From: a phage
Reading direction: 5' to 3' (one strand)
DNA length: 64,000 nucleotides
Sequence record: PZ295659.1
Shown: piece by piece, positions 2,506 through 28,957 of the stretch
Layout: each line of letters opens with the position of its first letter
Position numbering within the stretch: the first letter of the stretch is position 1
Notes under the pieces: model-generated
What the model was told of the DNA's origin: nothing
The model's input: the letters and a program-made list of their open reading frames with translations, nothing else
Database searches by the model: none
Translations under genes and position numbers: made by a program

Positions 2506-3630
2506 ATGGAAAAATTTATGGCAAGGTTTGGACAGGGATACGTCCAAACGCCGTTTTTATCGGAAAGCAATTCAGTTAGATTTAAGCTAAGTATAGCGGG
2601 TTCATGCCCGCTTTCAACAACTAATCCGTATATTTTGTTCCAAGACGAGCCTTTAGGGTTGCAGTCTTTTGGTATTGGACTAAATGTTAGGGTGATAAAT
2701 CCGGAAAATGGAACTATAGTTGATAGTAAATTATACAATTTTGCGCCTACAAATAATGCAACTTCAGCTGCATTTATTTCGTTTGTTAATACATACGCAG
2801 ATAATTTCATTTTCGCATTTATTTCTAATAACAAATTTAATTTGCCGCCAGAAATAATTGAATGGTTTAAAGCTGCTGGGAGTTCAGTTATACCGTCAAT
2901 TGAAGTTGCTAGTCTTGTTGATATTTCATATTCAGCGTTTTATGTTTCAGGTAAAAATACTATTGCATTAGAACACATAAAATACAGTAATAAGAAAACA
3001 ATTTCTGATTACGCAACTCCATTAGATATTGTATATGACTCTATTGCTGATATAGGTGCTACCGGCTATCCTAGACGTACATATGAAGCTCTAGAAACGT
3101 TTTTATCTCCTGTTGGAAGAACTAACAATGAAATAAAAAGGATGCCTACATCATCCCTTGTTACTCCTATCGCAAACTATGGATTAAAGCCTACGGATTT
3201 TCTTTATTTGAAATTTCAATTAACGGCTGATGAAGAATTATTAGAGGAAGGAACCACAAGACTTTCAATTCGTTTCTTTAAGTCTCCATCTAGCTCTCCT
3301 ATATCATCTAAAGATATAAACTTTGATGGAACTGCCGGGGAGTGGAAGCTATATGAAGAATACGTTGAAATACCGGCTGAAGCTGATGGCTTTACAGTAT
3401 ATTGTTACCGTACGGCCTCAGTCGGTCAAGGTGGGCTAAGAAATGTTATTTTCACTGAAGTATCATGTAACGGAAGTATAGCAAAACCAGCCGAGTTTGG
3501 TATAAACGGTATTCGTGCTAATTACATTGATGAATCATTAACCGGTAATGATATAATGGACTTGCCTACTCAGTTATCTAACGACACAGGTAAGGTATTT
3601 GGGCAGGAATTTAAAGAGTACACAGAATAA
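2506..3630 (+). CDS. 35: Tail fibre hinge connector gp35
   Basis: 374 aa; N-terminus MEKFMARFGQGYVQTPFLSESNSV matches remembered T4 gp35; SD aagagg before ATG; synteny. Confidence 0.85.
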   Translation: MEKFMARFGQGYVQTPFLSESNSVRFKLSIAGSCPLSTTNPYILFQDEPLGLQSFGIGLNVRVINPENGTIVDSKLYNFAPTNNATSAAFISFVNTYADNFIFAFISNNKFNLPPEIIEWFKAAGSSVIPSIEVASLVDISYSAFYVSGKNTIALEHIKYSNKKTISDYATPLDIVYDSIADIGATGYPRRTYEALETFLSPVGRTNNEIKRMPTSSLVTPIANYGLKPTDFLYLKFQLTADEELLEEGTTRLSIRFFKSPSSSPISSKDINFDGTAGEWKLYEEYVEIPAEADGFTVYCYRTASVGQGGLRNVIFTEVSCNGSIAKPAEFGINGIRANYIDESLTGNDIMDLPTQLSNDTGKVFGQEFKEYTE

Positions 3631-3648
3631 AGGAGACTTCGGTCTCCT
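3631..3648 (+). terminator. Stem-loop AGGAGAC-UUCG-GUCUCCU followed by UUUU, directly after the gp35 stop
   Basis: Perfect 7-bp inverted repeat with UUCG tetraloop on the plus-strand transcript, then T-run. Confidence 0.55.
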
Positions 3649-3655
3649 TTTCGCG

Positions 3656-3663
3656 TATAAATA
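3656..3663 (+). promoter_or_regulatory. T4-type late promoter TATAAATA upstream of gp36
   Basis: Exact TATAAATA about 27 nt upstream of the gp36 ATG, with SD taaggag in between. Confidence 0.65.
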
Positions 3664-3689
3664 CTTTAATATTAATAAGGAGACACGAA

Positions 3690-4346
3690 ATGGCCGATTT
3701 AAAAGCCGGAAGTACAGTTGGTGGTTCCGTCATATGGCATCAAGGCAATTTTCCTTTAATGCCAGCTGGCGACGACATTCTATATAAAACATTTAAATTA
3801 TACACTGAATATAACAAGCCAAAAGCGGCTGATAACGATTTCGTATCTAAAGCAAATGGCGGGACATATCTCAAAAAGGTAATCTTTAACGAAGGTGTTG
3901 CAGTCAAAACAGCAGATGACCAAACGAATGGTATTTTTTCTGGTGGTGGTGACGCCGCGACATTCGACCAAACAAACATGGATATTGTTTCGTGGTATGG
4001 TATTGGGTTTAAAACATCTCAAGGTACAGGTGAAAGAACTGTTGTAATTGATACTCGCACCGGTAATATAAGTTCTAAAGGCGTTATTGAAGCATCTCAA
4101 TTCAGAGCCACAACGTTAGCACCTTTAAATAATTACGACCTTACTCGCAAAGATTATGTTGATAGTCAAATAAATACAGTTAATGCTAATGCAAACAGTC
4201 GTGTACTCCGTTCAGGAGATACGATGACCGGCGCGCTAACCGCCCCAAATTTTTTCTCACAGAATCCTGCATCTCAACCATCGCATGTTCCACGATTTGA
4301 CCAAATTGTTATTAAGGATTCTGTTCAAGATTTCGGCTATTATTAA
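3690..4346 (+). CDS. 36: Long tail fibre distal connector gp36
   Basis: 218 aa; MADLKAGSTVGGSVIWHQGNFPL... and C-terminal ...SQPSHVPRFDQIVIKDSVQDFGYY match remembered T4 gp36. Confidence 0.9.
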   Translation: MADLKAGSTVGGSVIWHQGNFPLMPAGDDILYKTFKLYTEYNKPKAADNDFVSKANGGTYLKKVIFNEGVAVKTADDQTNGIFSGGGDAATFDQTNMDIVSWYGIGFKTSQGTGERTVVIDTRTGNISSKGVIEASQFRATTLAPLNNYDLTRKDYVDSQINTVNANANSRVLRSGDTMTGALTAPNFFSQNPASQPSHVPRFDQIVIKDSVQDFGYY

Positions 4347-20419: not shown

Positions 20420-22235
20420 AGGACATCCATTCTTTACGAAGTTCTGAATCATCACCCAACAACATTTCAAAGAGTTCTTTCCAATTTTCAGGAAGTTTAA
20501 CTACGTCGTACACAGGGTTCTGAATCATTTCACGATATTCTGACTTTTCAAGGGAGCCTAATCCCTTGATGTATCGAATACTATGCTTAGGAAGTGTATC
20601 TTTAGCTTCTTCATACTCAGCTACAGTATAAAACCATTTTTGAGTTTTGCCAATTTGTGCAATAATTACAGGCGTTTTAACAAAGCGAATACGTCCTTGT
20701 TCAAACAATTCAGGCCAATTACTAAAGAAAGCAAGCAAAGCTGGATAAATACTTCCAAGACCGTCATGATCGGCATCGGTCATAATTGCAATATTACGAT
20801 AGTTTGTATTCTCTGCCTTTTCACCAAGAATAAGACCTGTGATAGCACAGATATCAAAGAGCTCTTTATTCTTCATCATATCAGCATATGACATACCCCA
20901 GCTATTCATCACCTTACCACGTAATGGGAATCCGCCGTGTAGTTCACGGTCACGAACATCAATGAGATAACCAATTGCCGAATCACCTTCTGTTAAAAAC
21001 AATGTCGTATCTGCATCTTTACCACATTGGTTAGCTTTAATATGCTTATGAACCTTAGCTTTAGTTGCCTTTTTAGCTGCTTTAGTTTCTGCAGCTTTTT
21101 CTGCCGCCAATTTACGAGCTAATGCTGCTTCAACAATAGGCATAATCAAGGCTTCGTTTTTAAGAAGTGCCTGAGCAATTTTCTTAGCATCTAATTGGAT
21201 ATGATTACGAATATCACCATACGTTGACGTTAAACGTTCTTTAGTCTGAGAATCAAAACGCATGTTGCTCATGTCTCTAATAAACATCAACATTGTGAGA
21301 CATTCTTTAACACGAGCTTTAGTGACTTCAATACCCTTATATTTCTTTTTAATACCTGGCAAAAGATGTTCGCAGATATCATCCATTACACATTCAACAT
21401 GATGACCACCATTTTTAGTATGGATGTTATTCACATAAGTTAAATGACGGAAGCCATCTGGTGATGTTGTGAATGCTATAGAGACTTTATCATTTTCTTG
21501 AATGATGTTATCTTCGCCAAATTGTTTAGCAAATCGTTTAAAATTACCATCAACCTTTTTACCGTTAAATGTGAACTTGATATCAGGATAAACGACTGCC
21601 AATGTTTGAAGTCGGTCTAAAGTAATATCTAAATAAATTTGAGATAAATTATGTTCTTCAAATGAAGAGAAATCAGGAGTGAAGATTACTTTAGTGCCTT
21701 TACCTTTAGATTTCTTAGAAGACCATGATTTGTTTTCCATTCCGTTTGAACAGTTAACAGTGATTTCATTTTCGCCATCTGATGTGATGCCTGTAAACAA
21801 CGTAGAGAAGATATTAGTTAAACTACTCCCGACGCCGTTCATACCACCAGTCTTGCGTTCAGAGTCATCACCAAAGTTACCACCAGCCTTTGGAATAGTC
21901 CAGGCTGCTACAGGACCTGGAATCTGTTCACCATTTTGGTCGGTGACCATTGCTTGAGGAATACCACGTCCGTTATCTTCCACTGAGACTTGATTATTTT
22001 TAATTTGCACATCAATTTTATTTGCAAACTTAAACGATGTACGAATAGCTTCATCAACCGAGTTGTCAATAATCTCATCGATTAATTTAACCAGACCAGG
22101 AACATATTCAACTTGTTGATATTTACCAAACAAAAAACGCTCGTGGGCTTCTTTAGCCGAAGAACCAATATACATACCACTTCGTTTCTTAATATGTTCT
22201 ACATCTGACAGTACCTTAATTTCATTTTTAATCAT
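20418..22235 (-). CDS. 39: DNA topoisomerase II large subunit gp39, uninterrupted GyrB-like form
   Basis: 605 aa continuous ORF MIKNEIKVLSDVEHIKKRSGMYIGS... covering the ATPase and Toprim regions. Confidence 0.9.
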   Translation of the reverse strand: MIKNEIKVLSDVEHIKKRSGMYIGSSAKEAHERFLFGKYQQVEYVPGLVKLIDEIIDNSVDEAIRTSFKFANKIDVQIKNNQVSVEDNGRGIPQAMVTDQNGEQIPGPVAAWTIPKAGGNFGDDSERKTGGMNGVGSSLTNIFSTLFTGITSDGENEITVNCSNGMENKSWSSKKSKGKGTKVIFTPDFSSFEEHNLSQIYLDITLDRLQTLAVVYPDIKFTFNGKKVDGNFKRFAKQFGEDNIIQENDKVSIAFTTSPDGFRHLTYVNNIHTKNGGHHVECVMDDICEHLLPGIKKKYKGIEVTKARVKECLTMLMFIRDMSNMRFDSQTKERLTSTYGDIRNHIQLDAKKIAQALLKNEALIMPIVEAALARKLAAEKAAETKAAKKATKAKVHKHIKANQCGKDADTTLFLTEGDSAIGYLIDVRDRELHGGFPLRGKVMNSWGMSYADMMKNKELFDICAITGLILGEKAENTNYRNIAIMTDADHDGLGSIYPALLAFFSNWPELFEQGRIRFVKTPVIIAQIGKTQKWFYTVAEYEEAKDTLPKHSIRYIKGLGSLEKSEYREMIQNPVYDVVKLPENWKELFEMLLGDDSELRKEWMS

Positions 22236-22284
22236 GTTGTCTCCTCGTTATGAAGGTATTCTATCATCCGAAATCTAAAGCAAA

Positions 22285-22300
22285 AAGGGCCGAAGCCCTT
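22285..22300 (-). terminator. UUCG-tetraloop hairpin (AAGGGC-UUCG-GCCCUU) + U-run upstream of gp39
   Basis: Plus-strand aagggccgaagccctt between ORF 22299..22724 and gp39. Confidence 0.55.
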
Positions 22301-22724
22301 ATTTAAATTTAATTTTCTGAAGTGCATCAATTGCGGCCAAACGCCCTTGTTCACTTTTAACTGTAATGACCACATCACCTGATACGATCACCGAACCATC
22401 AACGAATTCTATAGAGCCTTTTTTGAAATCGACAGTTGTATCTGGTTCCGGAACTTCTTCAAAGAATTTAAATTCTGCACCATAAAGCAAAATATCACCT
22501 TGCATACTATGAATAGTTCGGCCATAATCGCCTACGGCTTCTACAGCAATAATCGAAACGCCGTAACCAATCATCTCTTCCACAATAAAATCTTTGGACA
22601 ATAAAGTAGTATGCAAATTAGTATTAAGACGTTTACCGGTCGTATTAAGCATTCTCAAGAAATTATCTTCCTGACCTTTGATAATACGATATTTCTTACC
22701 AACTTCAAAACCTTTAAAAGCCAT
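22299..22724 (-). CDS. Hypothetical protein
   Basis: 141-aa ORF. Confidence 0.5.
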   Translation of the reverse strand: MAFKGFEVGKKYRIIKGQEDNFLRMLNTTGKRLNTNLHTTLLSKDFIVEEMIGYGVSIIAVEAVGDYGRTIHSMQGDILLYGAEFKFFEEVPEPDTTVDFKKGSIEFVDGSVIVSGDVVITVKSEQGRLAAIDALQKIKFK

Positions 22725-22726
22725 AA

Positions 22727-22906
22727 TTAACCCTTCTTAAGTAAGTCGTAAAAACCGCCGTTCACATGTTTAGGAGCAGAAACCCGACGAGTAGACAGAC
22801 GATGACATTCAGGGCAAACATCGTTTTCTCGTTCAGAAATTCTTTTAATTTTTTCATATTCATGGCCACAATCTTCAGATTGACATTTATAGTCGTATAA
22901 TGGCAT
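22727..22906 (-). CDS. Zinc-ribbon small protein (59 aa, two CxxC pairs)
   Basis: MPLYDYKCQSEDCGHEYEK...CPECHRLSTRR; fills the gap between two annotated ORFs; absent from the six-frame track because it is under 60 aa. Confidence 0.55.
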   Translation of the reverse strand: MPLYDYKCQSEDCGHEYEKIKRISERENDVCPECHRLSTRRVSAPKHVNGGFYDLLKKG

Positions 22907-22908
22907 TA

Positions 22909-23337
22909 TTATTCCTTAAAATGTGCTTTCAACATTTGATACAAAGACCATGCCTGGTCATTATTTTCGATAGTAATCGTCATCACAGGAAATTCAGACA
23001 ATTCGTCAAGTTCATCAGAATCTTGCTCTTCGGACGCTTGATATGGATTTTCAACTTCGTCAAAGAACTCTGCTTCATTCGTGGAGAGCCAGATAAAGTT
23101 TTCATCAAGGATATCACCGCCTGTTGCGTATCCAACCGTGCCAGTAGATGTCACAATTTTAGTAGGACGTCCAAGATGGTCAACATCTAATACTTTAAAT
23201 GGTTCCATGCCAAGACGTCGTGCATAAATCCCATTATCAGTGTGGTCTTTAATAAACTCTTCTTGGGCACGTTTATCTATAAATTGGTACCATGAGTTAA
23301 CGCGGAATTTATTAGCCATTAGTAAGTTTCCTTCCAA
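22909..23337 (-). CDS. Hypothetical acidic protein
   Basis: 142-aa ORF. Confidence 0.5.
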
Positions 23338-23546
23338 TAAGTTGTACCATTTTCAGTGATTTCACGGAAGATACCATAGATAGGCATTTCATCGCCGAGT
23401 TTTTCGTAAACGTAAACCACTTCGGTGTAGCATAAAAATTCGGTCCAGTTTTTCTGTACAACAACTAAATCAGGATTAAACAGAACATCTTCAAACTCAT
23501 CGATGTTTGAATCAGTAGTTACGTTTTTAATGATTTGACGTTTCAT
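23319..23546 (-). CDS. Hypothetical protein (start at internal ATG with SD aggag)
   Basis: Six-frame ORF 23319..23591 trimmed; promoter-like cassette lies between 23570 and 23605. Confidence 0.4.
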
Positions 23547-23603
23547 AATATTCTCCTCTTGTTTTGATAGGTCTATAGTATCATAGACCATAGTTGTTGT
23601 ACA

Positions 23604-24128
23604 TCATTTTAGCAAAATAAAATCAACTTGTTCTGCCAATGAACGTCTAAACATTAATTGACAACTTCCGAGGATGAAATCAGGTGCTTCATAGACCGCG
23701 ATGTAGTATCCTTTAGCTTTCAAGAGTTCAACATCCACCTGGTCGTCAAACCATGCATAAACCGCGTCAACACTTTCAAATCCAAAATAGAACCCTTGGG
23801 CCCAATCTTCACTCAATTCAAATGTGTGCCCAATTCTATAGTATCTTAAGATATTTTGTTCAAGGAGTTTATCTTCATTTACTGTAGGACGATTAGGAAC
23901 ATTATAGTTGTCGCCGTGATGGTAGAAGTTACCTGAGATTATTCCATGTTTATCAAGGAACTCCCATGTTTCTTCAGAGTTGTCGGTGCCCGACCAACCG
24001 TATGGCGAACGAGGTTCTTTATTCCAAGAGGTTTCCCAAATTCTGACCGCTTTACCGTCTTCGATAGCAATTCCTGGTAATGATTCACGTTGAGTACAAA
24101 AACTACGTTCTACGCGGTAAACTAACAT
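23604..24128 (-). CDS. Hypothetical protein (start at internal ATG with SD ggaga)
   Basis: About 174 aa after trimming the six-frame ORF 23604..24185. Confidence 0.45.
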   Translation of the reverse strand: MLVYRVERSFCTQRESLPGIAIEDGKAVRIWETSWNKEPRSPYGWSGTDNSEETWEFLDKHGIISGNFYHHGDNYNVPNRPTVNEDKLLEQNILRYYRIGHTFELSEDWAQGFYFGFESVDAVYAWFDDQVDVELLKAKGYYIAVYEAPDFILGSCQLMFRRSLAEQVDFILLK

Positions 24129-24154
24129 ATTATTCTCCTCTGGTTGATATGGGT

Positions 24155-24183
24155 ATAATATCAAAACCAGAGGAGAAGTAAAC
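24155..24183 (-). promoter_or_regulatory. Early promoter (GTTTACT-N16-TATTAT) inside an 11-bp inverted repeat
   Basis: ctcctctggtt...aaccagaggag arms flank the -10 region. Confidence 0.5.
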
Positions 24184-24187
24184 AACT

Positions 24188-24607
24188 TTATGCGAAAGCA
24201 GCTGGGGTATATTTTTTAATTTGGAATTCAGGAACTACCATGAACTGTCCAGCGAAAACGATGTTATAAAGCTTAACACCATCTTCTACCCAACGGTCGC
24301 TAATAAATCCGGCGATTTGCTTAGTTTTCCATGGTGTTCCATCAGTTGCCGCAGCAATAGTGAATTCATGGTCTTTTTCAACAGAAACTGATCTGCATAG
24401 TCCCCATTTGAACGCTTTTTCTTCCGGTTCAATGAATTGGCTTGAGACGTAGCCAATATTACCATTAGCATCACGAACTTTAACTTGGTTACGACCAAAA
24501 ACCGGATCACTCACAGAAAGAACTTCAACCAACTTCCCGGCAACTTTAGAGCGAGAAGCAACAGATACATATACATAATCACCTGTAGAGAGATTTACAA
24601 TATTCAT
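24188..24607 (-). CDS. Hypothetical protein, paralog A of a tandem pair
   Basis: 139 aa; shares FKWGLC...GFISDRWVEDGVKLYNIVFAGQF with the adjacent ORF. Confidence 0.55.
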   Translation of the reverse strand: MNIVNLSTGDYVYVSVASRSKVAGKLVEVLSVSDPVFGRNQVKVRDANGNIGYVSSQFIEPEEKAFKWGLCRSVSVEKDHEFTIAAATDGTPWKTKQIAGFISDRWVEDGVKLYNIVFAGQFMVVPEFQIKKYTPAAFA

Positions 24608-24616
24608 AATAATTCC

Positions 24617-25072
24617 TTAAGCTTTACGAGGAGACACATAGCGAGTGATTTCAGATTCTTTAACAACTCGGAAGTCACCTAAGAATACGATATTGTATAA
24701 CTTTTCACCATCTTCAACCCATTGGTCACTAATGAAGCCACACATAGTATCAGTTTTGCTTGGATAACCGTATTCGTCGATGAAGTCAAATTCTTTATCA
24801 GTCTGGAATTCAACACCTTTACACAAGGCCCATTTGAACTGTACATTAGGTTCAGTAGAAGCAGATGGAGCGCTCACACGAGTTTCCAGGAATTTAGGAC
24901 TTACGTAAGCGTACTGAGTATCCTGACGTCCAAAACTAGGAATGATTCGAACTTTAACTTCTTTAATACGTCCCATGCCATTTGTGCGAAGTCCGACAAC
25001 TTCAACCAGACGACCAGCGGCTTTAGACCGGGATGCAGTTGATACACGCTTAATTTCACCAATAGTAATCAT
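24617..25072 (-). CDS. Hypothetical protein, paralog B of a tandem pair
   Basis: Start at internal ATG 25072 aligning with paralog A; shares FKWALC...GFISDQWVEDGEKLYNIVFLGDF. Confidence 0.55.
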   Translation of the reverse strand: MITIGEIKRVSTASRSKAAGRLVEVVGLRTNGMGRIKEVKVRIIPSFGRQDTQYAYVSPKFLETRVSAPSASTEPNVQFKWALCKGVEFQTDKEFDFIDEYGYPSKTDTMCGFISDQWVEDGEKLYNIVFLGDFRVVKESEITRYVSPRKA

Positions 25073-25137
25073 ATTTTTTCTCTCTTTGTTTAAGTTGAAT
25101 TCATTATACTCCATCCATCCTTGGATGTAAACTGTTT

Positions 25138-25815
25138 TTATCGCTGTTTTACACTTAACGGGTCAGGATTCTCAGGGACATCTTCAAGACCAAGCGCATA
25201 ACGCTGAGCATATTTTAACATCAAAATATCTTTAGCACAATCATGAATACTATCATGGGCAACGAATCCTTTTAGCGTACCCATTGGTAATGGACACATA
25301 CTTAATCCTCGTGTCAACGAGTAAGCTTCGATTGCCGTACGAATATCACGTTGAGCCCAGAATTTAACCGGTTCTAATTTATCAGTATCAATCTCTGGTT
25401 CAGGAACACCTTCATCACGATAGAGGTCACGAATCAAATCGACCAATATCGGGAAGTCAAAGCTCATACCACGACACCACATCTGTGATTTCCATTGGTC
25501 AACTTTATTAGCTCGGCAATAATCTAAAAAGATTTTAATGCCTTCAAGCGTAGTGACATCGTCTTCAGACGGAGCCAAGTTTTTACGCGCTTCGGCCGAT
25601 TGTTCTTTCCACCATTTCATAGTGGATTTAGCGAAAACTCGCTTACCTTTCTGAGAAGCTAAATTAAATTTAATTCGCTTACCTCGTTGAACAAGTTCTT
25701 CAAATGATTCAACAACTTCAGGGTCGGAATTATACGCAATAACCGCAAGGTCAATAACAGCCGCTTTTGATGTATTGCCGAATGTTTCAAAATCTATAAT
25801 AACATCAGTGCTCAT
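25138..25815 (-). CDS. dexA: Exonuclease A (DexA), DEDD-type
   Basis: 225 aa; MSTDVIIDFETFGN...; adjacent to dda as in T4. Confidence 0.8.
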   Translation of the reverse strand: MSTDVIIDFETFGNTSKAAVIDLAVIAYNSDPEVVESFEELVQRGKRIKFNLASQKGKRVFAKSTMKWWKEQSAEARKNLAPSEDDVTTLEGIKIFLDYCRANKVDQWKSQMWCRGMSFDFPILVDLIRDLYRDEGVPEPEIDTDKLEPVKFWAQRDIRTAIEAYSLTRGLSMCPLPMGTLKGFVAHDSIHDCAKDILMLKYAQRYALGLEDVPENPDPLSVKQR

Positions 25816-25824
25816 AATTTTCTC

Positions 25825-27138
25825 TCAAATAAAATGGACGTCAAACCGGCCACGAGTTGTGCCGACATACAATAACTGTTTAGCTAATTCTGAATCGGCA
25901 TAATGGATACACGGTGTATAAACAAAGGCCGTGTCAACAGACATACCCTGGGCCTTATGGAAGGTTGATACTGGTAGTGCCTTCACCTTAGTGAACATAC
26001 GTTTAGCATCCCAGAATTCGCTCCATGGAGCTTTACCACCTTTATTCCAAAATTTGTATGTTTCTGCGGTCTTAGCCAAAAACAAATTGAATTTATAAAG
26101 CTCTTCTTCAGAAGAAATAACCTTTATATCTTCGCGGATGTATTCTTCATCATCCCCATATGTTTCTACTGTAAGATTCCAGTATCGTATCATATATTCG
26201 CCTGAAACACCACGTGCTTTAACGAATGTAGACGTTTCTACAGCATCTCGAATACGAACGAATTGGCCGTTATTGAAAAGCATTTCGGTCATATTTTTAC
26301 CATCTAGCTTATATGTCTTAGTAAACGGCTCTTGTAGAACAATGACTTCGTCTTTAATAAATGGTTTTTCTGTTTCAAGAAGTTTTCGGCGAATAATTGA
26401 ATTTAACTTGTCCACCGACTTATTTGTGAATGCCATCATTCGATTTTCGAAAAGGTCTTCAGGAGTTTTAACGACGTTAAAATAGTTCATCATATACGAT
26501 TTAAGGTCTGTATATCCATGAACACCATGCCCATCAACTACTTTATCGTAAATCCATTTGCCGTTACGAATATCAGTCGCAACATCAATAATTGGTGCAT
26601 TGCTACGTTTAACTTCTGTAAGGTTGCATTGCACGAAGTCTTTGTGAGTGAAGAAAGGACTTAGATACGCAGTTGATTCGCCTGGGTCTACCGGACGAAT
26701 CTGGCATCGGTCGCCGATTCCAATTACTGTACACCATTTAGGGATACTAGCTAACATTATTTTAAACAGAGAACGGTCGCACATTGACGCTTCATCAAAT
26801 AACAGTACACGGCACAAGGCTAAGTCGGGAACCTTTTTCTGTTCAAACAATATGTTTTCTTCGTATGTAGTTGGGTTGATTTTAAGAATGCTATGAATAG
26901 TCGATGCTTCTTGACCCGCAAGTTTGCTTAGAACCTTTTTAGCAGCATGTGTAGGGGCTGCTAAAATAATACCTGATTCTCCAGAAGAAATAAGGGCTTC
27001 AACGATGAATCTAGTAAGGGTTGTTTTACCTGTACCAGCAGGCCCATTAATAGTTACGTGATGTTTCTTTTCTTTAATAGCGTTCATAACAACGTTGAAG
27101 GCGTTTTTCTGGCCTTCAGTCAAATCATCAAATGTCAT
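25825..27138 (-). CDS. dda: DNA helicase Dda (SF1)
   Basis: 437 aa; MTFDDLTEGQKNAFN...INGPAGTGKTT Walker A; matches remembered T4 Dda. Confidence 0.9.
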   Translation of the reverse strand: MTFDDLTEGQKNAFNVVMNAIKEKKHHVTINGPAGTGKTTLTRFIVEALISSGESGIILAAPTHAAKKVLSKLAGQEASTIHSILKINPTTYEENILFEQKKVPDLALCRVLLFDEASMCDRSLFKIMLASIPKWCTVIGIGDRCQIRPVDPGESTAYLSPFFTHKDFVQCNLTEVKRSNAPIIDVATDIRNGKWIYDKVVDGHGVHGYTDLKSYMMNYFNVVKTPEDLFENRMMAFTNKSVDKLNSIIRRKLLETEKPFIKDEVIVLQEPFTKTYKLDGKNMTEMLFNNGQFVRIRDAVETSTFVKARGVSGEYMIRYWNLTVETYGDDEEYIREDIKVISSEEELYKFNLFLAKTAETYKFWNKGGKAPWSEFWDAKRMFTKVKALPVSTFHKAQGMSVDTAFVYTPCIHYADSELAKQLLYVGTTRGRFDVHFI

Positions 27139-27446
27139 CGTAAAGTCCCTGCAATTGGAATACTAACAATACGGCCTGTATCCAGGATTCGTTGATACAA
27201 TTTTTGCGTCTCCGCATCTAGTTTAAAGCGTTTCATTTCAAGCTTATTAAACCAGAACTTACGCGGAGTTTCGACCATTCTTAGAACTCCCATTTTTAAA
27301 TCTGTTTTATACTGTGTTTTCAAAGTATCGAAAACTTTATCTGCAATATCCTTTCTAAAAAATACTGCAGGACGATGCTCATCAAGTGGAACCGGGACAG
27401 TAAATCCTTCCATATCTCGATAAACTATTGCATATACATAAACCAT
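27135..27446 (-). CDS. Hypothetical protein (dda.1 position)
   Basis: 103-aa ORF with start/stop overlap to dda. Confidence 0.5.
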   Translation of the reverse strand: MVYVYAIVYRDMEGFTVPVPLDEHRPAVFFRKDIADKVFDTLKTQYKTDLKMGVLRMVETPRKFWFNKLEMKRFKLDAETQKLYQRILDTGRIVSIPIAGTLR

Positions 27447-27448
27447 AA

Positions 27449-28195
27449 TTAACCTTTAATCAGTTGGAATAATGATGCGCTAAGTGGTAAGCCACGTTTC
27501 AATTTTAATTTACCAATGAAACCGATCTTTTCAAAACGTTGCAGACCTTGGATAACTTTATCATATGTATCGAAAAGCGATTCAGCGTCAGTTAATTTAG
27601 TTTTAGTTTTCCAGTCAGAGCCTTTAAGAAGAACGTTGAGTTTAGTAAGTTCATGGCCTTCTGCTTGATGTGAGCCATTAATGCGTGCTTTCAAAGCAAC
27701 AATTCTAAGTTTAGATTCGTTAGATAAAGGTTGATTTTTCATCATGTTCGCCATATGCTTAACACGATTTTCACGTTTTGCTCGGATTTTTAAAATAGTG
27801 CCATAAATCTTTTTAATTTGGGCCCATTTCTTCTCGTCGAGATTAAGTTTCTCTACTTTACGAGCAGAAGGATTAGCGATACGTCTTGCAATGGCATCAC
27901 GTTTCTCAATAAGTTCTTCTAATGTTAAATCAGAACGAGCTGTGTTATATTTTTTCTTAACTGGGATAACATTACCTTTAATGTAGCCGATATCGTTATT
28001 AAAACGTTCTAAGGATAATTTCTCACCTTCAACAGAGTTATTGAAAGATTCACCTGAGTAAGCGCAGACCTTTTGATCAAGAATGTTTTTAAGGTAATTA
28101 AAATCTAAGTTAAAATCCTTAGAGCGTCTCTTCGCAGAAGCTCTGGTGTGGTCAAGACGACGATTGATTTTGTTAATTTTATTATTTGATAACAT
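27449..28195 (-). CDS. Hypothetical basic protein (position of T4 srd); degenerate HNH-like stretch without catalytic His/Cys
   Basis: 248 aa, lysine/arginine rich; ERFNNDIGYIKGNVIPV segment; no confident family assignment. Confidence 0.45.
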   Translation of the reverse strand: MLSNNKINKINRRLDHTRASAKRRSKDFNLDFNYLKNILDQKVCAYSGESFNNSVEGEKLSLERFNNDIGYIKGNVIPVKKKYNTARSDLTLEELIEKRDAIARRIANPSARKVEKLNLDEKKWAQIKKIYGTILKIRAKRENRVKHMANMMKNQPLSNESKLRIVALKARINGSHQAEGHELTKLNVLLKGSDWKTKTKLTDAESLFDTYDKVIQGLQRFEKIGFIGKLKLKRGLPLSASLFQLIKG

Positions 28196-28245
28196 AATAT
28201 TTTCCTCTGTCTTACGGACGTTAGGTCATTTAGCTGATATGTCCT

Positions 28246-28274
28246 ATAATATCATGCCCTCAGGTAGTGTACAC
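28246..28274 (-). promoter_or_regulatory. Early promoter (GTGTACA-N16-TATTAT)
   Basis: Upstream of ORF 27449..28195. Confidence 0.5.
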
Positions 28275-28348
28275 TCTTTTTTCGTAAAATGCTTTAATTT
28301 TTTATGTGTTATAATGGTTCTGAGTTCCATCCGGTTATTCCAATCCAG

Positions 28349-28957
28349 TCAGTAACCGACAATAGACAGATTCCAGATTGTATAACTTCCATCTTGAATA
28401 ATAGAATCTACACGCAGTGTAGTCCCTATAGGGAGCATAAATTCACATTCGTCAGATATAAGTCTAGCATTAGACCGTCTTGTCGCTTCAGGGAAAGCTC
28501 CATTGAACTCACAAGATGGCGCAGCCAGAATCATGTTAAGCATATGTTCACGGAAGTTGAAAGCAAATGGTGCATCTTTGATGCAGAACATATTAAATGT
28601 TCCGTAAAAATTATACGAAGCAAAGTTACGTGCTACACTGAACACTGGGCTGAAGCTCATTACTCTGTCAAATTTAATAATACTACCAACGCCTTTATCA
28701 TCGAGTGTGGCCATAGTTTTCTTAGAGATTCCACGATACATTGTCTCAGGAACAGAAGACGTCCAATTTCTACGAACGATTGAACTTAACTCCTGTTGGA
28801 TGCTATCAGGCTTGTTTTCCATACATTGCCATAGTACACTTTGTTCAATGTCGCTGAATTGCTCATCGATTTTGTACTGAAGCATATCTTGATAATCCGG
28901 GCATTGAGCACGACGAACCATTTCTTCAATTTCACATTCATTATACGGCATAAACAT
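28349..28957 (-). CDS. modA: ADP-ribosyltransferase, ModA/ModB-like
   Basis: 202 aa; R-S-ExE elements: YRGISKK, FSPVFSVA and SDECEF; position between dda and soc as T4 mod genes. Confidence 0.6.
   Translation of the reverse strand: MFMPYNECEIEEMVRRAQCPDYQDMLQYKIDEQFSDIEQSVLWQCMENKPDSIQQELSSIVRRNWTSSVPETMYRGISKKTMATLDDKGVGSIIKFDRVMSFSPVFSVARNFASYNFYGTFNMFCIKDAPFAFNFREHMLNMILAAPSCEFNGAFPEATRRSNARLISDECEFMLPIGTTLRVDSIIQDGSYTIWNLSIVGY

What the first reader, a model, noticed from the sequence alone, without database searches (positions are those of the whole stretch)
24188..25114. Tandem paralogous gene pair upstream of dexA
Two adjacent genes (139 aa and about 151 aa) share long conserved blocks (FKW(G/A)LC...GFISD(R/Q)WVEDG(V/E)KLYNIVF(A/L)G(Q/D)F). 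This indicates a local duplication followed by divergence; the fold and function are unknown.
Basis: seen in the sequence. Interest (0 to 1): 0.4.

Follow-up and report, generated by a model that had tools for sequence, protein, structure and literature searches.

The report
Two tandem MotB genes, RB69-like phage
The two neighbouring genes are real but anciently diverged copies of motB, a known T4-type phage early gene for a DNA-binding, nucleoid-remodelling protein. The pair is already annotated and published for phage RB69, so the finding is correct but ordinary.

Summary
Two adjacent minus-strand genes, 24617-25072 (151 aa, "A") and 24188-24607 (139 aa, "B"), share 43% identity (BLASTP E=1e-32).

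- **Family and fold are known.** Both genes pass Pfam PF17613 (MotB) and phrog_1671. A is the ortholog of T4 MotB (48% identity), an early protein that binds DNA non-specifically and perturbs H-NS. AlphaFold2 models (pLDDT 84-85) show two small beta-barrels resembling tandem KOW/Tudor domains.
- **The duplication is not recent.** Nucleotide identity is 54%, dS is about 2.7, and the longest shared run is 13 nt. B branches outside all orthodox T-even MotBs. It shares a short N-domain hairpin with distant relatives, lacks the interdomain linker, and has a neutral rather than basic N-domain.
- **Both copies are maintained.** Both are intact in all 11 genomes compared, with dN/dS of 0.23 (A) and 0.14 (B).
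- **The pair is widespread.** The window is a Mosigvirus (RB69-like). The same pair occurs in 208 of 778 MotB-carrying phage records, including some Tequatroviruses.
- **It is already published.** RB69 ORF010c/motB and Patterson-West et al. 2021 describe two motB copies.
- **The pair lies downstream of dexA, not upstream,** and is probably co-transcribed from a near-consensus early promoter at 25103-25131.

Novelty: already known. Interest is low.

The parts
24617..25072 (-). motB copy A (151 aa), ortholog of T4 MotB: basic KOW-like N-domain, 15-residue linker, acidic beta-barrel C-domain
   Evidence: PF17613 2.7e-37, 128.6 bits. phrog_1671 1.8e-64. 48% identity to T4 MotB, E=2e-43. 91% identity to RB69 MotB P0046. 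AF2 pLDDT 83.7, with only the linker residues 67-75 below 50. dN/dS 0.23.
25073..25114 (-). Spurious N-terminal extension (MEYNEFNLNKERKN) obtained by reading from the ATG at 25114. Probably 5' UTR and promoter, not coding.
   Evidence: The ATG sits in the spacer of the promoter at 25131..25103. The extension is absent in PHB12, where the longest ORF is 151 aa. Family alignment A1 starts at M15.
24188..24607 (-). motB copy B (139 aa): compact, linker-less MotB paralog with a neutral N-domain and a short N-domain hairpin
   Evidence: PF17613 2e-20, 73.7 bits. phrog_1671 1.3e-50. 43% identity to A and 36% to T4 MotB. At least 84% identical orthologs, found in 208 phage records. AF2 pLDDT 85.2. 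dN/dS 0.14. N-domain net charge -1 to +1, against +3 to +9 in the other T-even-type MotBs and +2 to +7 in the distant relatives.
25103..25131 (-). Candidate sigma-70 / T4-early-type promoter (TTTACA-17-TATAAT) driving A and B. It is a hybrid of two promoter repeats that flank motB.1 in relatives.
   Evidence: Best promoter match in 22000-28500, 11 of 12. Alignment with the two PHB12 intergenic regions shows the hybrid junction. It is a consensus match only; activity was not tested.
24614..24618 (-). Shine-Dalgarno AAGGA for copy B, overlapping the TAA stop of copy A (24617-24619). The gap between stop and start is 9 nt, implying co-transcription and possibly coupled translation.
   Evidence: Read directly from the sequence. 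No promoter or terminator is predicted between A and B. No stable structure there (fourth sequence).
24133..24177 (-). Strong hairpin immediately after the stop of B, marking the downstream edge of the A-B module. Its 3' arm contains the GAGGAG Shine-Dalgarno of the next gene (motB.2-like). A second promoter-like site (24182..24155) overlaps it.
   Evidence: MFE -24.6 kcal/mol, z=-5.4, 0 of 200 shuffles fold as well. Promoter-like TTTACT-16-TATTAT.
23604..24128 (-). Neighbour: motB.2-like gene (174 aa from the ATG at 24128). Unrelated in sequence to MotB despite the name.
   Evidence: 33% identity to T4 MotB.2, E=3e-16. phrog_1106. Annotated motB.2 in RB69.
25138..25815 (-). Neighbour: dexA exonuclease, transcribed before the motB pair
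   Evidence: PF16473 4e-20. phrog_255 exonuclease 9e-82. Annotated as an exonuclease gene at this position in the relatives, named dexA in RB69.

Best explanation
The locus is a two-gene early module of a Mosigvirus (RB69-like T-even phage) that encodes two anciently diverged members of the MotB family.

Copy A (151 aa) is the ortholog of T4 MotB. T4 MotB is an abundant early protein made of a basic KOW-like barrel and a second small beta-barrel. It coats DNA without sequence specificity, reshapes H-NS-DNA complexes, derepresses part of the H-NS regulon and roughly doubles burst size.

Copy B (139 aa) keeps the same two barrels and every family-invariant residue. These include the SRSK motif and D-x-W-V-E-x-G-x-K-L-Y-N-x-V-F. 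B has no interdomain linker, a shorter N-domain hairpin and an uncharged N-domain.

Both genes are probably transcribed together from a near-consensus early promoter just after dexA, with B's ribosome-binding site overlapping A's stop codon.

What is shown: paralogy, family membership, predicted fold, purifying selection on both copies, and age of the split.

What is inferred: A acts like T4 MotB. B is a sub- or neo-functionalised partner, for example with weaker or different nucleic-acid binding or working together with A, rather than a dosage copy or a decaying one.
For: - Paralogy: 43% identity, E=1e-32.
- Family: PF17613 at 128.6 and 73.7 bits against a cut-off of 25, and phrog_1671.
- Orthology of A: 48% identity to T4 MotB.
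- Conserved residues: 34 invariant columns across 37 family members, including SRSK and the D.W.E.G.KLYN.VF core, all kept in B.
- Selection: in all 11 genomes compared both genes are intact, with dN/dS 0.23 (A) and 0.14 (B).
- Age of the split: dS about 2.7, 54% nucleotide identity, longest exact run 13 nt. B is the sister of all orthodox T-even MotBs (80-90% bootstrap for the joint clade). B shares the short hairpin with distant relatives.
- Charge: B N-domain -1 to +1, against +3 to +9 in the other T-even-type MotBs and +2 to +7 in distant relatives. The A C-domain is -4 to -7 in two-copy phages.
- Expression signals: promoter 11 of 12, 9-nt A-B spacing with AAGGA, and a hairpin after B.
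- Function of T4 MotB: PMC6070864 and PMC7827196.
- Prior knowledge of the pair: RB69 annotation, and PMC7827196 section 3.2 with its supplementary file 3.
Against: - No experiment exists for either Mosigvirus protein. DNA binding and H-NS effects are extrapolated from T4 MotB at 48% (A) and 36% (B) identity.
- B's uncharged N-domain argues it may not bind DNA the way T4 MotB does.
- Overall pI is not conserved in the family (5.4 to 9.2), so charge arguments are soft.
- The basal position of B rests on NJ trees of short alignments (65-160 columns) and could be a long-branch effect.
- The promoter is a consensus match only.
- The structural matches are to a very common small-barrel fold, with modest scores (TM about 0.4, E about 6e-4).
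Confidence: 0.8

Rival explanations
1. Recent local tandem duplication in the Mosigvirus lineage, followed by rapid divergence of one copy.
For: - The genes are adjacent, in the same orientation and 9 nt apart.
- B is marginally closer to its neighbour A (43%) than to T4 MotB (36%).
- A and B share GFISD, where most other MotBs have GYITD.
Against: - dS is about 2.7 and third-position identity is 36%.
- B falls outside the clade of all orthodox MotBs from four genera.
- B lacks the IIPKxGxxxTQ-type hairpin insertion shared by all orthodox MotBs, as do distant relatives.
- B is currently the slower-evolving copy (dN/dS 0.14 against 0.23).
- The same B type, 89% identical, sits in the Tequatroviruses RB10 and Sf23.
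Confidence: 0.1
2. Copy B is a redundant dosage copy or a decaying duplicate with no function of its own.
For: - motB lies in a region dispensable in T4 (PMC6070864).
- 570 of the 778 MotB-carrying phage records lack B.
- Single chimeric genes that replace the pair exist in metagenome contigs.
Against: - B is intact in all 11 genomes examined, with dN/dS 0.14.
- All family-invariant residues are retained.
- B orthologs stay at 84% identity or more in 208 records.
- B has a distinctive, conserved charge and linker state.
- 43% identity to A is too low for simple dosage redundancy.
Confidence: 0.07
3. Copy B modulates or antagonises copy A. It could do so by heteromerising through the shared C-domain, while its uncharged N-domain weakens DNA coating. 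Alternatively it could bind RNA or a host nucleoid protein instead of DNA.
For: - The charge pattern is complementary: A has a basic N-domain and an acidic C-domain, and B has a neutral N-domain and a mildly basic C-domain. The A C-domain is acidic in the four A-type sequences from two-copy phages that were compared, although one distant relative (P0139) is equally acidic.
- The genes are tightly coupled.
Against: This is purely inferential.
Confidence: 0.25

Closest known systems
Bacteriophage T4 MotB (Pfam PF17613; NP_049626)
   Same: Both proteins pass the family model. They share the two-domain layout, the SRSK motif and the DxWVExGxKLYNxVF core. They sit in the same genomic neighbourhood (dda-dexA ... 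cef-goF-39) with early-gene signals. Copy A is the positional and sequence ortholog (48% identity).
   Different: T4 has one motB, whereas this phage has two. Gene order differs: in T4 it is dexA-motB.2-motB.1-motB-cef, and here it is dexA-motB(A)-motB(B)-motB.2-cef. A has an acidic C-domain, where T4's is +2. B has no linker, a shorter hairpin and an uncharged N-domain.
RB69 ORF010c (NP_861700) plus RB69 MotB (NP_861701), and the equivalent annotated pairs in more than 200 Mosigvirus and some Tequatrovirus genomes
   Same: It is the same two genes in the same order: 91% (A) identity to RB69, and at least 84% identity among B-type orthologs. The locus is 97.6% identical in DNA to phage NHEP10. 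These pairs are annotated 'MotB-like transcriptional regulator (x2)'.
   Different: The window, like RPN187, lacks the motB.1 gene that RB69, PHB12 and most relatives carry between dexA and motB.
T4 MotB.1 and related 'Category 2-4' proteins (Patterson-West 2021; Kim 2025)
   Same: They share the C-terminal core module (DQWIEDGVELLNVV...).
   Different: They have a different N-domain, which is LSm-like. They are absent from this window. Neither A nor B belongs to this branch.
KOW / Tudor / SH3-like small beta-barrels (NusG, Spt5 KOW6-7, 53BP1 tandem Tudor)
   Different: No significant sequence match to Pfam KOW. The similarity is at fold level only and says little about function.

Membership tests
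MotB family (Pfam PF17613 / phrog_1671) | Sequence match above the curated Pfam gathering score | tested here: met
   A scores 128.6 bits and B 73.7 bits against a cut-off of 25. phrog_1671 gives 1.8e-64 and 1.3e-50.
MotB family (Pfam PF17613 / phrog_1671) | Two-domain architecture: KOW-like N-terminal barrel plus C-terminal beta-barrel | tested here: met
MotB family (Pfam PF17613 / phrog_1671) | Family-invariant residues (SRSK in the N-domain; D-x-W-x-E-x-G-x-K-L-Y-N-x-V-F in the C-domain) | tested here: met
   There are 34 invariant columns in the 37-sequence alignment A1, all present in both window proteins.
MotB family (Pfam PF17613 / phrog_1671) | Location in the early, dispensable dda-dexA...cef-goF-39 region of a T-even-type genome | tested here: met
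   ORF map, compared with the annotated RPN187, PHB12, T4 and RB69 regions.
MotB family (Pfam PF17613 / phrog_1671) | Early expression from a host-type (sigma-70) promoter | tested here: inconclusive
   A TTTACA-17-TATAAT match (11 of 12) lies 31 nt upstream of A's start. It is a consensus match only, with no transcript data.
MotB family (Pfam PF17613 / phrog_1671) | Tight non-specific DNA binding, co-purification with H-NS/StpA, toxicity in E. coli, burst-size benefit | not testable with these tools
   Known only for T4 MotB (PMC6070864, PMC7827196).
Orthodox T-even MotB clade (orthologs of T4 MotB) | Basic N-domain with the longer IIPKxGxxxTQ-type hairpin, and an interdomain linker | tested here: met
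   This row is for copy A: N-domain +7, hairpin present, 15-residue linker. A falls inside the clade.
Orthodox T-even MotB clade (orthologs of T4 MotB) | Same features, tested for copy B | tested here: not met
   B has an N-domain charge of +1 (-1 in orthologs), a hairpin shortened by 6 residues against A in A1, and 5 residues between the domains. It branches outside the clade. B is a MotB-family member but a separate subfamily.
MotB.1 / LSm-like-fold family (Kim et al. 2025) | LSm-like N-domain followed by the MotB.1-type C-terminal core (DPTDLLC...DQWIEDGVELLNVV) | tested here: not met
   Neither window protein has this N-domain. No third C-domain copy exists in the window. The motB.1 gene present in PHB12, RB69 and T4 is deleted here.

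The most novel reading that the evidence does not exclude
The 139-aa 'B-type' protein may be a distinct, ancient MotB subfamily with a function of its own. It has an uncharged KOW-like domain, no linker and a short hairpin, and it always sits directly behind an A-type MotB whose C-domain has turned acidic. It could act as an obligate partner or modulator of A, splitting between two polypeptides what T4 does with one. Alternatively it could bind a different target, such as RNA, StpA/Hha, or modified phage DNA. That would make two-copy phages a natural separation-of-function system for working out how MotB remodels the nucleoid.
Probability: 0.3. Interest if true: 0.35.

Novelty: already known. 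Interest (0 to 1): 0.15.

Why it matters
It matters little as a discovery. The gene pair is annotated in hundreds of phage genomes, and the existence of two motB copies in RB69 is in print.

The modest value lies in the refinements. The second copy is an old, strongly constrained, linker-less and uncharged subfamily, not a fresh duplicate. It moves between genera together with its partner, and the two recombine into single chimeric genes.

For anyone studying how MotB reshapes the host nucleoid and H-NS silencing, RB69-type phages offer a natural two-protein version of the system. T4's own motB.1 appears to be a truncated allele, which bears on negative results obtained with it.

Tried and rejected
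- **PDB sequence search** with copy A gave no hit at E<=1, so no solved relative exists.
- **NCBIfam and PADLOC** gave nothing meaningful, so there is no link to a defence or anti-defence catalogue.
- **Pfam KOW** was not recovered by sequence even at E<=1. The KOW assignment rests on fold and on published HHpred results.
- **IMG/VR scan** with copy B returned only 3 loci. Orthologs for dN/dS were therefore taken from GenBank phage records.
- **AlphaFold DB fold library** was unavailable.
- **Son et al. 2021** (NAR 49:9229, MotB as a nucleoid-compacting protein) is not held in the library. It is cited only through the reference list seen and from my own knowledge.
- **First bootstrap script** timed out and was replaced by a lighter NJ/Kimura implementation.
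- **Rejected readings:** pseudogene or decaying copy (dN/dS 0.14, always intact); recent gene conversion between A and B (longest identical run 13 nt); a third hidden copy in the window (none found); the 165-aa reading of A (its ATG lies inside the promoter spacer).
- **Internal repeat:** the weak internal N-domain/C-domain match seen was not pursued.

Full report
**What is in the sequence**

The interval holds two minus-strand ORFs. One runs 24188..24607 (139 aa, here called B). The other runs 24617..25072 (151 aa, called A), or 165 aa if read from an upstream ATG at 25114. BLASTP between them gives 43% identity over 145 columns, E=1e-32. At the DNA level only two short direct repeats betray the relationship: 49 nt at 71% identity and 18 nt at 89% (D1 and D10). 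A six-frame HMM and regex search of the whole 64-kb window finds no third copy of the C-terminal module.

Two details need correcting. The pair lies downstream of dexA (25138..25815, minus strand) in the direction of transcription. The 151-aa start is the credible one, as argued under expression signals below.

**What the genes are**

Both proteins match Pfam PF17613 'motB, modifier of transcription', at 128.6 and 73.7 bits against a gathering score of 25. Both also match phrog_1671, 'MotB-like transcriptional regulator', at 1.8e-64 and 1.3e-50.

The window is a Mosigvirus, that is an RB69-like T-even phage. Region 23600-25900 is 97.6% identical to Escherichia phage NHEP10 and collinear with phage RPN187. 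In these records the two genes are annotated 'modifier of transcription, motB' or 'MotB-like transcriptional regulator (x2)'.

- A is 48% identical to T4 MotB (E=2e-43).
- B is 36% identical to T4 MotB.
- The next gene (23604..24128, 174 aa) is the homolog of T4 MotB.2, an unrelated protein.

In RB69 itself the pair is RB69p011 (motB) and RB69p010, which is annotated as 'similar to T4' motB.

**Prior knowledge**

Patterson-West et al. [quoted passage not shown] Their supplementary table lists NP_861700 (RB69ORF010c) and B-type proteins of Shf125875, SHSML-52-1, RB51 and Sf24.

T4 MotB is an abundant early protein. [quoted passage not shown] It doubles burst size (PMC6070864). It changes the H-NS footprint at proV and up-regulates 75 host genes, about a third of them in the H-NS regulon (PMC7827196). 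A later paper (Son et al. 2021, NAR 49:9229) describes it as a phage nucleoid-associated protein that compacts DNA. I could not read that paper here. I know it from the reference list and from memory.

So 'fold and function unknown' is out of date.

**Structure**

AlphaFold2 with a 37-sequence family alignment gives confident all-beta, two-domain models.
- B: mean pLDDT 85.2, pTM 0.68.
- A: mean pLDDT 83.7, with only the linker residues 67-75 below 50.

The N-domain agrees with the published KOW assignment. The C-domain looks to me more like a second SH3/Tudor-like barrel than the published OB-fold call. The evidence for that is modest.

The family is tiny. A profile search of 1.84 billion cluster representatives finds only 35 at E<=1e-3.

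**How the two copies differ**

In alignment A1, 34 columns are invariant across 37 sequences. These include S-R-S-K in the N-domain and D-x-W-x-E-x-G-x-K-L-Y-N-x-V-F in the C-domain. B keeps all of them.

B differs in three ways.
- It has no interdomain linker: 5 residues, against 15 in A, 23 in T4 and about 47 in Dhakavirus-type proteins, which are acidic.
- It lacks 6 residues of the N-domain hairpin relative to A (KVRDANGNIGYV against KVRIIPSFGRQDTQYAYV).
- Its N-domain is uncharged: net -1 to +1 in four orthologs, against +3 to +9 in the other T-even-type MotBs and +2 to +7 in the distant relatives examined.

In the four A-type sequences from two-copy phages, the A C-domain is acidic (-4 to -7). 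In T4 and the other T-even-type single-copy MotBs it is about -2 to +3, although some distant relatives reach -7. This is compatible with a division of labour. It is an inference only, and whole-protein pI is not conserved in the family anyway (5.4 to 9.2).

**Age and maintenance of the duplication**

Codon-aligned A against B gives 54% nucleotide identity, 36% third-position identity in the C-domain, NG86 dS about 2.7 and a longest exact run of 13 nt. There has been no recent duplication and no recent gene conversion.

In NJ trees with 100 bootstraps, B-type sequences form a 100%-supported clade. That clade is sister to the clade of all orthodox MotBs from Mosigvirus, Tequatrovirus, Dhakavirus and Gaprivervirus. 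The joint clade has 90% support on the N-domain and 80% on the full alignment. The C-domain tree is less resolved.

An independent character agrees. Distant MotB relatives (P0139, P0142-P0162) have the short hairpin like B, while all orthodox MotBs share the longer one. Long-branch attraction cannot be excluded with these short alignments. However, B is currently the slower-evolving copy.

Across 11 genomes (the window and L001, L002, L004-L011) both genes are intact. Pooled dN/dS is 0.24 for A (median 0.23) and 0.14 for B.

**Distribution**

tblastn of B against 50,697 phage records finds 778 records with a MotB-family match. Of these, 208 have a hit of at least 80% identity (B-type present), none falls between 60 and 80%, and 570 have only hits below 60% (orthodox MotB only).

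B-type is not confined to Mosigvirus. The Tequatroviruses RB10 and Sf23 carry the same A-B pair, with B at 89% and A at about 78-85% identity to the window. There it sits in T4-type gene order: dexA-motB.2-motB.1-A-B-orf89-cef. T4, QOTSP, the Dhakavirus E33 and the Marfavirus F48 have a single motB. The pair therefore behaves as a unit that is either ancestral and often lost, or exchanged between genera.

**Expression signals**

The best sigma-70-type match in 22000-28500 is TTTACA-17-TATAAT at 25131..25103 on the minus strand (11 of 12). It ends 31 nt before A's ATG at 25072. The alternative ATG at 25114 lies inside its spacer. In relatives that carry motB.1 upstream, the longest ORF is the 151-aa one. 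T4 MotB aligns from that methionine.

B's ATG follows A's TAA by 9 nt, with AAGGA overlapping the stop codon. No promoter or terminator is predicted between the two.

Directly after B's stop there is a strong hairpin at 24133-24177 (-24.6 kcal/mol, z=-5.4, 0 of 200 shuffles as stable). It overlaps a second promoter-like site, and its 3' arm contains the GAGGAG ribosome-binding site of the motB.2-like gene.

A-B therefore looks like a bicistronic early module bounded by promoter or promoter-plus-stem-loop elements. All of this is sequence inference.

**Plasticity of the locus (side results)**

Most Mosigvirus relatives (PHB12, WFL6982, AV110, RB69) carry a 164-aa motB.1 gene between dexA and A, which the window and RPN187 lack. 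In PHB12 the intergenic regions on both sides of motB.1 contain near-identical copies of the early promoter. The window's junction is a hybrid of the two. The roughly 557-bp deletion therefore arose by recombination between direct promoter repeats, as described for PeSL elements in T4-type phages (PMC2839356, PMC4122927).

Metagenome contigs carry single chimeric MotB genes.
- P0028 has an A-type N-domain and linker fused at FKW to a B-type C-domain, as the only MotB between motB.1 and cef (L016).
- P0029 has a T4-type N-domain and a B-type C-domain, in a Tequatrovirus context (5 contigs read, with at least 3 different samples among the places shown).

One-sample contigs could be assembly chimeras. 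P0029 is unlikely to be.

**Mechanism, with confidence**

- Both genes are MotB-family members: about 0.97.
- A acts like T4 MotB, with non-specific DNA coating by two small barrels and disturbance of H-NS-DNA filaments early in infection: about 0.7, by orthology.
- B has a maintained function different from A's: about 0.6, from constraint, age, and charge and linker state.
- What that function is remains open. The partner/modulator idea is the most interesting reading (about 0.25-0.3).

**Verdict**

This is a correct observation of a known thing. The pair is annotated in hundreds of genomes and published for RB69. The refinements are new in detail but not in kind: an ancient B subfamily, purifying selection, charge pattern, chimeras and promoter-repeat deletion of motB.1.

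Novelty: already known. Interest: 0.15.

Noticed in passing
window 25073-25137 (compare L002 3974-4034 and 4530-4595): The window (and phage RPN187) lacks the 164-aa motB.1 gene that most Mosigviruses carry between dexA and motB. The junction is a hybrid of two near-identical early-promoter repeats (GTTTACATCCAAGGATGGATGGAGTATAAT) that flank motB.1 in PHB12. This indicates a roughly 557-bp deletion by recombination between promoter repeats, of the PeSL type.
   Followed up: yes
L003 (T4 NC_000866) 2722-2820 and 2792-3151, minus strand: The T4 reference motB.1 (119 aa) carries a 1-nt insertion (GATTGGAAG against GATTGAAG in RB10, Sf23, PHB12 and QOTSP) that cuts off the MotB-type C-terminal core. 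The next frame still reads EDGVELLNVVHAGEYSVVPRSAVVAILN without a stop. T4 MotB.1 thus looks like a recently truncated allele, which bears on negative results obtained with it.
   Followed up: partly
L011 (RB69) 3377-3873, minus strand: RB69 motB.1 is split by two 1-nt insertions into a 132-aa ORF and the 29-aa 'Category 3' peptide of Patterson-West 2021. The peptide is simply the broken-off C-terminal core. This is either a real mutation or an old sequencing error.
   Followed up: partly
window 24133-24177, minus strand: A strong hairpin (-24.6 kcal/mol, z=-5.4) lies between the B stop codon and the motB.2-like gene. Its 3' arm contains that gene's GAGGAG ribosome-binding site, and a promoter-like site (24182..24155) lies within it. 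Read-through transcripts would hide the ribosome-binding site, while transcripts started at the internal promoter would expose it.
   Followed up: partly
window 23544-23584 and 24126-24164: Direct repeats D2 and D3 (76-78% identity) show that the leader upstream of the cef-like gene resembles the leader of the motB.2-like gene. They look like repeated promoter/RBS modules along the early region.
   Followed up: no
L016 1373-1894; L017 3001-3492; L018 2199-2690; L019 37-528: Single chimeric MotB genes occur in metagenome contigs. One has an A-type N-domain plus a B-type C-domain (P0028). Another has a T4-type N-domain plus a B-type C-domain (P0029; 5 contigs read). The crossover is at or after the FKW motif, suggesting unequal recombination between the tandem paralogs and domain-level exchange between genera.
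   Followed up: partly
L006 2440-2988 and L007 1479-1988: Copy A is itself mosaic in some Mosigviruses. These have a T4-like N-domain (MNLGIIGEI...SIQLKEGVKDEDSEVKV) joined to the Mosigvirus-type C-domain, and an N-domain charge of +3 instead of +7.
   Followed up: partly
proteins P0143, P0145-P0147, P0155, P0162: Distant MotB relatives combine a KOW-like N-domain with a MotB.1-type C-terminal core (DPTDLLC...DQWIEDGVELLNVV). The MotB.1-type C-domain may therefore be the ancestral state and the T-even MotB C-domain (FKW...KLYNIVF) the derived one.
   Followed up: partly
models m3e7afc631b11 and mdbfaa70b922d: Whole-model matches are to tandem Tudor and tandem KOW proteins, with 124-133 aligned columns. 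This suggests the C-domain is an SH3/Tudor-like barrel rather than the OB-fold proposed from HHpred in the literature. Scores are modest (TM about 0.4).
   Followed up: partly
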